Shown piece after piece: positions 60,031 through 60,105 of a stretch of DNA of 64,000 nt. The stretch lies in IMG/VR virus record IMGVR_UViG_3300045988_097776; one strand, 5' to 3'. How positions within the stretch are numbered: the stretch's first letter is position 1; the number at the start of each line of letters is the position of its first letter. Made by a program: the position numbers and the translations under genes. The stretch is from a virus. A model generated the notes under the pieces. It saw only the letters and a program-made list of their open reading frames with translations, did not search any database and was not told where the DNA came from.

Positions 60031-60105
60031 TGGCAGCGGAGGTGGGATTCGAACCCACTCCCGAGGTTTTAGAGACCCCTGCGCTAACCATTACGCTACT
60101 CCGCA
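60031..60105 (-). tRNA. amber suppressor tRNA, anticodon CUA (reads UAG); Gln-like identity features
   Basis: Reverse complement is TGCGGAGTAGCGTAATGGTTAGCGCAGGGGTCTCTAAAACCTCGGGAGTGGGTTCGAATCCCACCTCCGCTGCCA. Anticodon loop CU-CUA-AA with U33 and A37. T-loop TTCGAAT. Discriminator G73, weak U1/U72 and G10, as in tRNA-Gln. Confidence 0.8.

What the first reader, a model, noticed from the sequence alone, without database searches (positions are those of the whole stretch)
60031..60105. Phage-encoded amber suppressor tRNA(CUA) with tRNA-Gln-like identity elements
A clean cloverleaf with anticodon loop CU-CUA-AA. It has G73, a weak 1:72 pair and G10, which are features of tRNA-Gln. It provides the decoding agent for the recoded TAG. 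It sits in a tRNA cluster with tRNA-Ser(UGA) at 60764-60853.
Basis: seen in the sequence. Interest (0 to 1): 0.85.

Follow-up and report, generated by a model that had tools for sequence, protein, structure and literature searches.

The report
Phage amber-suppressor tRNA reading TAG as glutamine
This is a real tRNA gene of a large gut phage that reads the stop codon TAG as glutamine, a known trick of "recoded" phages, with an unusual unpaired first base pair that probably helps it get charged with glutamine.

Summary
ARAGORN and Rfam both find a canonical 75-nt tRNA with anticodon CUA at 60031-60105 (-), with CCA encoded, in a cluster with tRNA-Ser(UGA), tRNA-Leu(CAA) and tRNA-Cys(GCA). The window is a large phage of about 148 kb, distantly related to the SPbeta and Enterococcus EF1 groups. 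Its closest contigs are binned with Clostridia.

TAG is reassigned. There are 112 in-frame TAGs in 74 genes, including RecJ, lysin, ThyX, DnaB and PolIII-alpha, and under a TAG-as-sense gene call no TAG looks like a terminator. TAG aligns with CAA/CAG in relatives. Gln beats every other amino acid by at least 35 log-likelihood units. Two TAGs sit at Gln positions of conserved motifs in solved homologues (SF1 helicase HRAQG, ThyX).

The tRNA lies behind a perfect sigma-70 promoter in a 20-kb, almost TAG-free block of RNA-repair and NAD-salvage genes.

Identity is only partly "Gln-like". G73, G2:C71, G10, U35 and A37 fit; C3:G70 and A38 do not. Position 1:72 is a U·U mismatch, and the tRNA body does not profile as tRNA-Gln.

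The mismatch recurs in 24 of 31 CUA tRNAs of this phage lineage but is rare elsewhere.

Verdict: a new member of a known kind.

Side finding: long-armed CUA tRNAs in relatives carry a Gln-anticodon-like hairpin.

The parts
60031..60105 (-). tRNA(CUA) amber suppressor. U1 is at 60105, the anticodon CUA at 60072-60070, U72 at 60035, G73 at 60034, and the encoded CCA at 60033-60031.
   Evidence: ARAGORN; Rfam RF00005 at 61.6 bits; cloverleaf minimum-free-energy fold; coordinates checked; conserved in L013-L017.
60549..60577 (-). Consensus sigma-70 promoter: TTGACA, 17-nt spacer, TATAAT with an upstream TG. It lies upstream of ORF 60198-60527 and the suppressor tRNA.
   Evidence: 12/12 match in the promoter scan; sequence read back. 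Function is inferred, not shown.
60122..60150 (-). Weaker promoter-like site (TTCAAA, 17-nt spacer, TATAGT) immediately upstream of the tRNA.
   Evidence: 9/12 match. This is a consensus match only.
60198..60527 (-). TAG-free 109-aa ORF between the promoter and the tRNA. No family match.
   Evidence: ORF list; no Pfam hit; 0 TAG.
60764..60853 (-). tRNA-Ser(UGA), the upstream member of the tRNA cluster. It shares 28 of 31 acceptor and T-arm positions with the suppressor.
59331..59407 (-). tRNA-Leu(CAA), a member of the cluster.
59139..59215 (-). tRNA-Cys(GCA), a member of the cluster.
40804..60527 (-). Standard-code-compatible block that contains the tRNA cluster. It holds RNA-repair genes (RNA ligase, AAA_33 kinase, phosphoesterases, Thg1-like, RlaP, cREC_REC, MVP-like, DUF2828/DUF7788) and NAD-salvage genes (NAMPT, NadE, PRTase, isochorismatase). 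Leaving out one TAG-rich homing-endonuclease-like gene (48237-49115, 6 TAG), it has 1 TAG among 153 Gln-type codons.
   Evidence: Fisher p=1e-11 against the rest of the window.
17852..19606 (-). RecJ-like DHH/DHHA1/RecJ_OB exonuclease gene with 13 in-frame TAGs. An example of a gene that needs the suppressor.
   Evidence: The TAGs align to TAG or CAA/CAG in relatives.
35533..36939 (-). Lysin (Phage_lysozyme2 + Amidase_2) with 11 in-frame TAGs.
15287..15289 (-). TAG codon at the Gln of SF1 helicase motif VI (HRA-Q-GSQW) in gene 15158-16192; both solved homologues compared have Q here.
   Evidence: Aligns with Q of RecD2 (PDB 3e1s) and of 9kwf. CAA/CAG in all 11 relatives.
26872..26874 (-). TAG codon inside the ThyX RHR...S-Q-xSxRY motif, in gene 26506-27132.
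   Evidence: Aligns with Q in solved ThyX structures.
12335..12337 (-). The single TAG in the PolIII-alpha gene (11213-15115), at residue 927.
   Evidence: CAA in 10 relatives and TAG in 2.

Best explanation
The gene encodes a functional amber-suppressor tRNA that lets a large phage of Clostridia-like gut bacteria read UAG as glutamine (genetic code 15) in a host that uses UAG as a stop.

Shown:
- It is a canonical, conserved tRNA with anticodon CUA.
- The genome uses TAG as about 16% of its Gln-type codons, and under a TAG-as-sense gene call no TAG looks like a terminator.
- TAG positions correspond to Gln in homologues.
- The tRNA sits in a nearly TAG-free 20-kb block behind a consensus host-type promoter.

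Inferred:
- The block, including the tRNA, is transcribed early by host RNA polymerase and translated in standard code.
- The tRNA is charged with Gln by a host enzyme. No synthetase or release-factor gene is present in the window.
- It then outcompetes RF1, so that TAG-containing genes (RecJ, RuvC, ThyX, lysin, fibres, homing endonucleases) become translatable.

Charging most likely relies on a minimal acceptor-end and anticodon module rather than on a tRNA-Gln body. The module is an unpaired 1:72 (U·U), G73, G2:C71, G10 and U35. These are the features that convert laboratory amber suppressors of other tRNAs into glutamine inserters with E. coli GlnRS.
For: - tRNA calls; fold.
- In-frame TAGs in Pfam-confirmed genes.
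- Codon comparison with 12 related loci: TAG aligned to TAG 117 times, CAA 68, CAG 15, and the next codon, AAA, 14.
- Likelihood over 44 TAG sites: Gln is best by 35 log units over Glu, 39 over Lys and 58 over Ser.
- TAG falls at the Q of motifs conserved in solved ThyX and RecD2-type helicase structures.
- Codon counts with TAG read as sense: 112 TAG, 422 CAA, 164 CAG; stops are 54 TAA, 20 TGA and no candidate TAG terminator. The tRNA block has 1 TAG among 153 Gln-type codons, against 105 of 528 elsewhere, p=1e-11.
- A 12/12 sigma-70 promoter lies upstream.
- The tRNA is invariant while its flanks are about 78% identical.
- 24 of 31 distinct CUA tRNAs of this lineage have a 1:72 mismatch, and nearly all have G73. 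In a 15-sequence subset chosen from the mismatched short forms, the other 20 cloverleaf pairs are 80-100% paired (18 of them at least 93%) with covariation.
- Literature: the bacterial Gln identity set, and amber suppressors with a destabilised 1-72 pair becoming Gln inserters (PMC9976931). 28 of 29 phage tRNA(CUA) tested gave a product mass matching Gln (near-isobaric with Lys) in E. coli extracts (bioRxiv 10.1101/2025.10.30.685624).
Against: - There is no direct evidence of expression, charging or decoding.
- C3:G70 and A38 differ from the E. coli GlnRS identity set.
- Profile comparison scores the body best as Cys, Thr or Gly, not Gln.
- A 1:72 mismatch is known from initiator tRNA to weaken EF-Tu binding, which could cost elongation efficiency (from my own knowledge).
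- The host, and whether it has GlnRS, are unknown. MAG binning to Oscillospiraceae and Eubacterium is weak host evidence.
- The genome outside the window was not seen and may hold other suppressors.
- The 1:72 mismatch is not general among phage CUA tRNAs: 2 of 91 in an IMG/VR-wide sample. It may be a lineage trait for reasons other than GlnRS recognition.
Confidence: 0.85

Rival explanations
1. The tRNA decodes UAG but inserts an amino acid other than Gln, such as Lys, Glu, Trp or Ser.
For: Sequence profiles do not place the body with tRNA-Gln. The acceptor stem and T arm resemble the neighbouring tRNA-Ser(UGA) at 28 of 31 positions. G73 is shared with Trp and Ser tRNAs. Lys is a known mischarging product of U35 amber suppressors (PMC9976931).
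Against: TAG sites align overwhelmingly with CAA/CAG. Gln is favoured by at least 35 log units over every other residue. TAG sits at motif Gln positions conserved in solved homologues. The 4-nt variable loop excludes SerRS, LeuRS and bacterial TyrRS recognition. G73 argues against Lys, which needs A73 (PMC9976931).
Confidence: 0.04
2. Gln is attached indirectly. A non-discriminating host GluRS makes Glu-tRNA(CUA) and GatCAB amidates it, rather than GlnRS charging the tRNA directly.
For: The nearest cultured relatives infect Bacillota. Many Bacillota lack GlnRS (my own knowledge). The 4-nt variable loop, which lacks position 47, is a tRNA-Glu-like trait (PMC9976931 Table 1).
Against: GluRS2 and the amidotransferases rely on a U1-A72 pair (PMC9976931), and this tRNA has U·U. 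The main GluRS determinant is a modified U34 (PMC9976931), and this tRNA has C34. An unpaired 1:72 with G73 and U35 is the classic GlnRS recipe. Phage CUA tRNAs are charged by E. coli and Prevotella GlnRS (bioRxiv 10.1101/2025.10.30.685624).
Confidence: 0.12
3. The encoded U1·U72 mismatch is not the mature state. The phage Thg1-like 3'-5' polymerase (41950-42795) replaces the 5' nucleotide using U72 as template. This would give A1-U72, the first pair of most of this lineage's own tRNA-Gln genes.
For: A Thg1/Thg1C-domain protein is encoded in the same TAG-free block and is common in the lineage. Phage tRNA-Gln(UUG/CUG) in related loci are mostly A1-U72 with G73. Thg1-like proteins repair tRNA 5' ends by templated addition (my own knowledge).
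Against: This is pure inference. No enzyme is identified that would remove U1. For the A·C and C·C mismatches seen in relatives, editing would yield G1-C72, which is not Gln-like. The co-occurrence test was underpowered. RNA-repair neighbours suggest that the Thg1-like protein counters host tRNA nucleases instead.
Confidence: 0.08
4. The tRNA has no decoding role: it is a decoy for host anticodon nucleases, a pseudogene or a hitchhiker. TAG read-through would then depend on something else.
For: The gene lies among RNA-repair genes typical of defence against tRNA cleavage. No expression data exist.
Against: The cloverleaf is perfect, with all conserved tertiary positions, an encoded CCA and strict conservation. 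112 in-frame TAGs in essential genes demand a decoder. CUA tRNAs occupy the same position in the tRNA cluster next to the DUF2828 gene in many related phages.
Confidence: 0.03

Closest known systems
Suppressor tRNA(CUA) of TAG->Gln (code 15) recoded phages: crAss-like, Lak, Agate and other clades (Borges et al., bioRxiv 10.1101/2021.08.26.457843; Peters et al., PMC9523058)
   Same: - A phage-encoded CUA tRNA.
- In-frame TAG aligning with Gln.
- No phage synthetase.
- A standard-code region carrying the code-change machinery.
- Low-GC genome (about 35%).
- TAG-rich lysis and structural genes.
   Different: - A different phage lineage: relatives of SPbeta and EF1 with PolIII-alpha, and a putative Clostridia host.
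- TAG is also dense in some replication genes (RecJ 13, RuvC 7).
- The tRNA has a U1·U72 mismatch and a body unlike tRNA-Gln.
- No RF2 gene was seen in the window.
phAss-1 / proposed Phassvirus group (Babkin et al. 2023, PMC10607447)
   Same: - Human-gut phages of about 133-136 kb with affinity to Enterococcus phage EF1.
- TAG in about 28% of ORFs.
- 2-3 tRNA-SUP-CTA genes and many other tRNAs.
- No dedicated synthetase.
- Clostridia suggested as host.
   Different: Relatedness to the window was not tested directly, because the BK records and phAss-1 were not among the hits (one search found no near match in INPHARED). That paper gives no analysis of acceptor-end identity.
E. coli supE (tRNA-Gln CUA) and laboratory amber suppressors that become Gln inserters when 1:72 is destabilised (reviewed in PMC9976931)
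   Same: - CUA anticodon with U35, G73, G10, G2:C71, and a weak or open first pair.
- The mechanism is capture by GlnRS despite the loss of G36.
   Different: - A natural phage gene, not a mutant.
- C3:G70 and A38 instead of G3:C70 and U38.
- A fully mismatched U·U rather than U1-A72.
- The host enzyme has not been identified.
tRNA-Pyl (the ARAGORN label)
   Same: Only the CUA anticodon.
   Different: The window tRNA has a normal D loop with G18G19, a two-nucleotide 8-9 linker, a 5-bp anticodon stem and a UUCGAAU T loop. tRNA-Pyl lacks these features (my own knowledge). No PylS or PylBCD genes are present in the window.

Membership tests
Phage-encoded amber suppressor tRNA of a TAG->Gln recoded phage | A canonical tRNA gene with anticodon CUA | tested here: met
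   ARAGORN; Rfam at 61.6 bits; cloverleaf minimum-free-energy fold.
Phage-encoded amber suppressor tRNA of a TAG->Gln recoded phage | The gene is located on a phage genome | tested here: met
   PHROG and Pfam phage genes. Relatives are IMG/VR viral contigs of about 96-156 kb. PolIII-alpha is 42% identical to the Enterococcus EF1 and SPbeta phages.
Phage-encoded amber suppressor tRNA of a TAG->Gln recoded phage | In-frame TAG codons in conserved protein-coding genes of the same genome | tested here: met
   112 TAGs in 74 genes, including RecJ-like (13), lysin (11), ThyX (3), DnaB (2) and PolIII-alpha (1).
Phage-encoded amber suppressor tRNA of a TAG->Gln recoded phage | TAG positions correspond to glutamine in homologues | tested here: met
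   CAA/CAG dominate the aligned codons. Gln is best by at least 35 log-likelihood units. Motif Q positions in ThyX and helicase structures.
Phage-encoded amber suppressor tRNA of a TAG->Gln recoded phage | TAG is no longer used as a terminator | tested here: inconclusive
   All 74 curated genes end in TAA (54) or TGA (20), but genes were called with TAG as sense, so this is partly built in. The evidence is that TAGs near the C terminus align to CAA in relatives.
Phage-encoded amber suppressor tRNA of a TAG->Gln recoded phage | The tRNA is expressed, charged with Gln and decodes UAG | not testable with these tools
   Needs tRNA-seq, aminoacylation assays or proteomics. Analogous phage tRNAs gave a product mass matching Gln (near-isobaric with Lys) in E. 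coli extracts (bioRxiv 10.1101/2025.10.30.685624).
Bacterial tRNA-Gln (E. coli GlnRS identity set, PMC9976931 Table 1) | G73 discriminator | tested here: met
   G at 60034.
Bacterial tRNA-Gln (E. coli GlnRS identity set, PMC9976931 Table 1) | Weak U1-A72 first pair | tested here: inconclusive
   The tRNA has U1·U72, unpaired. This is functionally compatible with GlnRS, which opens this pair, but it is not the defining U-A pair and not what GatCAB or GluRS2 read.
Bacterial tRNA-Gln (E. coli GlnRS identity set, PMC9976931 Table 1) | G2-C71 and G3-C70 | tested here: not met
   G2-C71 is present, but 3:70 is C-G (alignment).
Bacterial tRNA-Gln (E. coli GlnRS identity set, PMC9976931 Table 1) | G10 | tested here: met
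   G10-C25 is present and invariant in 15 of 15 related CUA tRNAs.
Bacterial tRNA-Gln (E. coli GlnRS identity set, PMC9976931 Table 1) | Anticodon-loop elements U35, G36, A37 and U38 | tested here: not met
   U35 and A37 are present. Position 36 is A, as required for reading UAG, and position 38 is A.
Bacterial tRNA-Gln (E. coli GlnRS identity set, PMC9976931 Table 1) | Overall sequence resembles tRNA-Gln (isotype profile) | tested here: not met
   With the anticodon masked, HMMs built from related-phage tRNAs (82% cross-validation accuracy) score Cys 45.1, Thr 41.0 and Gly 39.1; Gln is not among the top four. tRNAscan-SE isotype models were not available.
tRNA-Pyl | Atypical core: small D loop without G18G19, 6-bp anticodon stem, 3-nt variable loop, with pylS/pylBCD nearby | tested here: not met
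   The core is canonical. No Pyl genes were found among the scanned ORFs. The feature list is from my own knowledge.
Class II (Ser/Leu/Tyr-derived) suppressor | Long variable arm | tested here: not met
   The variable loop is 4 nt, GGGA.

The most novel reading that the evidence does not exclude
In this lineage of large gut phages, glutamine identity of the UAG decoder may not be inherited from tRNA-Gln. It may instead be built from add-on signals that capture the host glutamine-charging enzyme.

1. A selectively maintained unpaired 1:72 next to G73. The window tRNA has U·U, and 24 of 31 lineage CUA tRNAs are mismatched, against 2 of 91 elsewhere.
2. In long-armed relatives, a variable-arm hairpin whose apex displays a Gln anticodon (YU-CUG/UUG-AR). 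It is present in 36 of 37 such tRNAs, against 1 of 14 class-II-type CUA tRNAs and 9 of 172 other long tRNAs.

If these are true identity elements, they would be natural, previously undescribed ways of reprogramming tRNA identity. They would answer how recoded phages hijack host synthetases.
Probability: 0.35. Interest if true: 0.75.

Novelty: new member of a known kind. Interest (0 to 1): 0.45.

Why it matters
The window must be annotated with genetic code 15. With standard code, genes such as RecJ, the lysin, RuvC and ThyX break into fragments.

It adds a phage lineage related to SPbeta and EF1, probably infecting Clostridia, to the recoded phages. It also shows the suppressor embedded in a standard-code, host-promoter-driven block of RNA-repair and NAD-salvage genes, which fits the 'early code-switch' model.

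The conserved 1:72 mismatch, and the anticodon-like variable arm in relatives, give concrete mutational tests for an open question raised by Borges et al.: how host synthetases are made to charge phage suppressors. Such tRNAs may also be useful parts for genetic-code engineering.

Tried and rejected
- Megablast of 24 kb against the INPHARED phages found nothing. Only protein-level relatives exist there.
- Inferring the meaning of TAG in the loci with long-armed tRNAs failed at first. Antisense ORFs of conserved genes mimic recoding: sense CTA (Leu) read on the antisense strand gives TAG aligned to Q, K, E or H. After filtering, the tRNA-proximal 20 kb held too few TAGs. Only L160 gave a weak Gln signal.
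- I tested the idea that the window tRNA descends from tRNA-Gln. Profile HMMs do not support it.
- I tested the idea that it descends from the adjacent tRNA-Ser(UGA). The 28 of 31 shared acceptor and T-arm positions are seen only in the window, not in L013-L017, where the figure is 23 against 22 for the next tRNA. This is unresolved.
- I tested the idea that a 1:72 mismatch is general for phage CUA tRNAs. It is not: 2 of 91 in an IMG/VR-wide sample.
- Co-occurrence of the Thg1-like gene with mismatched suppressors could not be tested. There are 319 relatives, capped at 80 loci, on fragmentary contigs (one search failed).
- tRNA-Pyl (the ARAGORN label) is rejected on structure.
- No release-factor or synthetase gene was found among the ORFs scanned. 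Not every small ORF was scanned.

Full report
**The object.** ARAGORN reports four tRNA genes, all on the minus strand:
- tRNA-Cys(GCA), 59139-59215
- tRNA-Leu(CAA), 59331-59407
- a tRNA with anticodon CTA, 60031-60105
- tRNA-Ser(UGA), 60764-60853

Rfam's tRNA model matches all four over its full length. The CUA tRNA scores 61.6 bits against a gathering score of 29. Its sequence is UGCGGAGUAGCGUAAUGGUUAGCGCAGGGGUCUCUAAAACCUCGGGAGUGGGUUCGAAUCCCACCUCCGCUG, followed by an encoded CCA. It has:
- U8, A14, G18G19 and a UUCGAAU T loop
- a 5-bp anticodon stem and the anticodon loop CU-CUA-AA
- a 4-nt variable loop
- G10, G73, G2:C71 and C3:G70
- U opposite U at 1:72

The minimum-free-energy fold is the cloverleaf with positions 1 and 72 open. 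ARAGORN's 'Pyl' label is only its name for any CUA anticodon; the core is canonical and nothing Pyl-related is nearby.

**The genome.** GC content is about 35% and nearly all genes are on the minus strand. PHROG and Pfam scans identify:
- replication and nucleotide metabolism: PolIII-alpha, DnaB, an SF1 helicase, a RecJ-like exonuclease, RuvC, topoisomerase II, DNA ligase, NrdD/NrdG, ThyX, dUTPase
- lysis and structure: a lysin and Mtd_N-type fibre proteins
- an RNA-repair set: RNA ligase, an AAA_33 kinase, phosphoesterases, a Thg1-like protein, RlaP, cREC_REC, an MVP-like protein and DUF2828/DUF7788
- an NAD-salvage set: NAMPT, NadE, a PRTase and an isochorismatase

Relatives are IMG/VR contigs of about 96-156 kb. 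The nearest cultured phages are the Enterococcus EF1-type and Bacillus SPbeta-type phages, at 42% PolIII-alpha identity. Two contigs of about 148 kb, with 92% PolIII-alpha identity, are binned in Oscillospiraceae and Eubacterium MAGs. That is weak evidence for a Clostridia host.

**TAG is a sense codon.**
- Reading through TAG raises the minus-strand ORF total from 44.4 to 55.5 kb and restores full-length conserved proteins.
- In 74 curated genes there are 112 TAG, 422 CAA and 164 CAG codons. Every gene ends in TAA (54) or TGA (20); because the genes were called with TAG as sense, this is partly built in.
- Against 12 related loci, window TAGs align with TAG 117 times, CAA 68 and CAG 15. The next most common codon is AAA, 14 times.
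- I built substitution profiles from the same alignments and scored 44 TAG sites. Gln is best by 35 log units over Glu, 39 over Lys and 58 over Ser.
- Two TAGs fall on motif glutamines conserved in solved homologues. One is the Q of the ThyX RHR...SQxSxRY motif. The other is the Q of SF1 helicase motif VI, HRAQGS, in RecD2.

One caution arose on the way. Antisense ORFs of conserved genes imitate this signal, because CTA (Leu) reads as TAG on the other strand. I therefore used only sense genes for the tests above.

**Context and likely expression.** The tRNA cluster lies in a 20-kb block (40.8-60.5 kb). Leaving out one TAG-rich homing-endonuclease-like gene (48237-49115, 6 TAG), the block contains 1 TAG among 153 Gln-type codons, against 105 of 528 elsewhere (Fisher p=1e-11). 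A 12/12 sigma-70 promoter with a TG extension sits at 60577-60549. It is followed by a small TAG-free ORF and then the suppressor. This fits the model in which standard-code early genes, including the code-change machinery, are expressed first, and TAG-containing genes become translatable later (bioRxiv 10.1101/2021.08.26.457843). Here TAG-rich genes include not only the lysin (11) and fibres but also RecJ (13), RuvC (7), ThyX (3) and homing endonucleases. Neighbouring topoisomerase, ligase and NrdD genes have none. Expression timing is inferred.

**Conservation.** Five relatives carry the same tRNA with one extra D-loop U, while the surrounding 1.6 kb is about 78% identical. The gene order Ser(UGA)-CUA-Leu(CAA)-Cys(GCA)-DUF2828 is retained.

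**Identity.** I compared the tRNA with the bacterial Gln set: G73, U1-A72, G2-C71, G3-C70, G10, U34/U35/G36/A37/U38 (PMC9976931).
- Met: G73, G2-C71, G10, U35, A37.
- Not met: 3:70 is C-G, position 38 is A, and position 36 is necessarily A.
- 1:72 is unpaired rather than a weak pair.

Anticodon-masked profile HMMs of each isotype, built from 641 tRNAs of related phages (82% cross-validated accuracy), score the window tRNA best as Cys, Thr or Gly. Many other CUA tRNAs of the lineage do score best as Gln. The tRNA therefore carries Gln-type signals on a body that is not recognisably tRNA-Gln. Its acceptor stem and T arm match the neighbouring tRNA-Ser(UGA) at 28 of 31 positions. This does not hold in the closest relatives, so I draw no conclusion about descent from it.

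**The 1:72 mismatch.**
- Among 31 distinct CUA tRNAs from 80 related loci, 24 have a non-pair at 1:72 (mostly U·U and A·C, once three ARAGORN boundary errors are corrected), and 27 of the 31 have G73.
- Phage tRNA-Gln genes in the same loci have A1-U72 or U1-A72. Across the 16 other isoacceptor classes tabulated, only two tRNAs show a non-pair at 1:72.
- In an alignment of 15 short forms chosen from the mismatched sequences, the other 20 cloverleaf pairs are 80-100% paired (18 of them at least 93%), and 15 of the 21 pairs show changes on both sides. The mismatch is therefore maintained, not decay.
- It is lineage-specific. In an IMG/VR-wide sample of short CUA tRNAs, only 2 of 91 are mismatched, and both come from this lineage.

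Classic genetics shows that amber suppressors derived from tRNA-Ser, tRNA-Asn, tRNA-Lys, tRNA-Trp or tRNA-fMet become glutamine inserters through U35, G73 and a destabilised 1-72 pair (PMC9976931). In addition, 28 of 29 phage tRNA(CUA) tested in E. coli extracts gave a product mass matching Gln, which is near-isobaric with Lys (bioRxiv 10.1101/2025.10.30.685624). I therefore favour direct capture by a host GlnRS. The indirect GluRS/GatCAB route reads a U1-A72 pair and a modified U34, both absent here, so I rank it lower. No synthetase or release-factor gene was found in the window.

**Side finding in relatives.** Nine distinct CUA tRNAs in related loci are 89-95 nt long with a long variable arm. 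All nine carry YUYUGAR in that arm, against 1 of 118 other long tRNAs. A second IMG/VR-wide sample gave 51 distinct long CUA tRNAs:
- 36 of 37 with a Gln-type acceptor end (not G1-C72) have YUGA at the apex of the variable-arm hairpin.
- Only 1 of 14 with class-II (Ser/Leu/Tyr-like) bodies do.
- Only 9 of 172 other long tRNAs do.

The stems co-vary (GGC/GCC, GCC/GGC, CCUG/CAGG, UGC/GCA and others) while the loop stays fixed. The loop matches the anticodon loops of the phages' own tRNA-Gln genes, CUUUGAC, CUCUGAC and CUCUGAA. On the one contig where both regions were available, TAG sites align mainly with Gln, not Ser. I found no description of this feature in the paper library. It could be an anticodon mimic that recruits the Gln-charging enzyme, or a remnant of an anticodon-arm duplication kept for another reason. 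The window tRNA does not have it.

**Verdict.** The gene is a new member of a well-known kind, the phage amber suppressor for TAG->Gln recoding. Its interest is moderate. It comes from the maintained 1:72 mismatch, the non-Gln body, the position in a standard-code RNA-repair block, and the testable identity hypotheses these raise.

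Noticed in passing
L018 8237-8327; L024 3072-3160; L029 2832-2926; L058 6279-6368; L059 4567-4657; L065 6908-6998; L084 3153-3241; L089 1115-1206; L091 1377-1466; and more in L220-L339: Long (86-97 nt) tRNA(CUA) genes in related phages have a variable-arm hairpin whose apex reads YU-CUG/UUG-AR, like a tRNA-Gln anticodon loop. 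It is present in 36 of 37 with a Gln-type acceptor end, against 1 of 14 class-II-type CUA tRNAs and 9 of 172 other long tRNAs. The stems co-vary and the loop is fixed. I found no description of it in the paper library.
   Followed up: partly
window 40804-59009: A dense, TAG-free RNA-repair island: Metallophos_2, AAA_33 kinase, Thg1-like, Metallophos, RNA ligase (49195-50469), RlaP nucleotidyltransferase, cREC_REC, a protein with Major-Vault-Protein repeats and shoulder domain (54671-57106), and DUF2828/DUF7788 (57486-59009). The DUF2828 gene lies beside a tRNA cluster in most of the 80 phage loci retrieved with it.
   Followed up: partly
window 43586-48189: An NAD-salvage cluster (NadE, NAMPT, a phosphoribosyltransferase, an isochorismatase/nicotinamidase-like protein) inside the same TAG-free block. 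It may counter NAD-depleting defences.
   Followed up: no
window 40020-40784 and 48237-49115: Two paralogous ORFs with repeated KFGxLTV...CxCxCG modules and a C-terminal nuclease-like region. They have no Pfam match and are TAG-rich (5 and 6). One is inserted in the otherwise TAG-free block. They look like homing endonucleases adapted to the recoded state.
   Followed up: no
window 60764-60853 compared with 60031-60105: tRNA-Ser(UGA) and the suppressor share an identical 17-nt T arm and 11 of 14 acceptor-stem positions (28 of 31 in all). In the closest relatives the figure is only 23 of 31. Possible local gene conversion, or chance.
   Followed up: partly
L013-L015, about 445-600 (about 8 kb upstream of the suppressor, beyond the window end): Close relatives carry tandem tRNA-Gln(UUG) and tRNA-Gln(CUG) genes with A1-U72 and G73, plus Val, Leu(UAA) and Met tRNAs. 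The window's phage probably has them just outside the window.
   Followed up: no
L024 1380-1679; L027 6949-7258; L028 1106-1178: Related phages encode tmRNA genes (tags ARYQYQMAA and ADYSAYKMAA), and one encodes a tRNA with the ochre anticodon UUA.
   Followed up: no
any locus: antisense frames of conserved genes (for example L091 10360-11380 minus strand): A methodological trap. Antisense ORFs of conserved genes contain TAG wherever the sense strand has CTA (Leu), and they align with Q, K, E or H in relatives. This imitates TAG->Gln recoding.
   Followed up: yes
window 1-4250: There is a strand switch with a change in GC-skew sign near 4250. The plus-strand genes include a truncated resolvase-like ORF (214-690, 4 TAG) and a Gln-rich ORF (1268-1693) in which 9 of 17 Gln-type codons are TAG.
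   Followed up: no
L167, L168 (GenBank CALWOP010000177.1, CALCFD010000051.1): Contigs of about 148 kb with 92% PolIII-alpha identity to the window are deposited inside MAGs of Oscillospiraceae and Eubacterium. They are probably whole phage genomes binned with bacteria.
   Followed up: no
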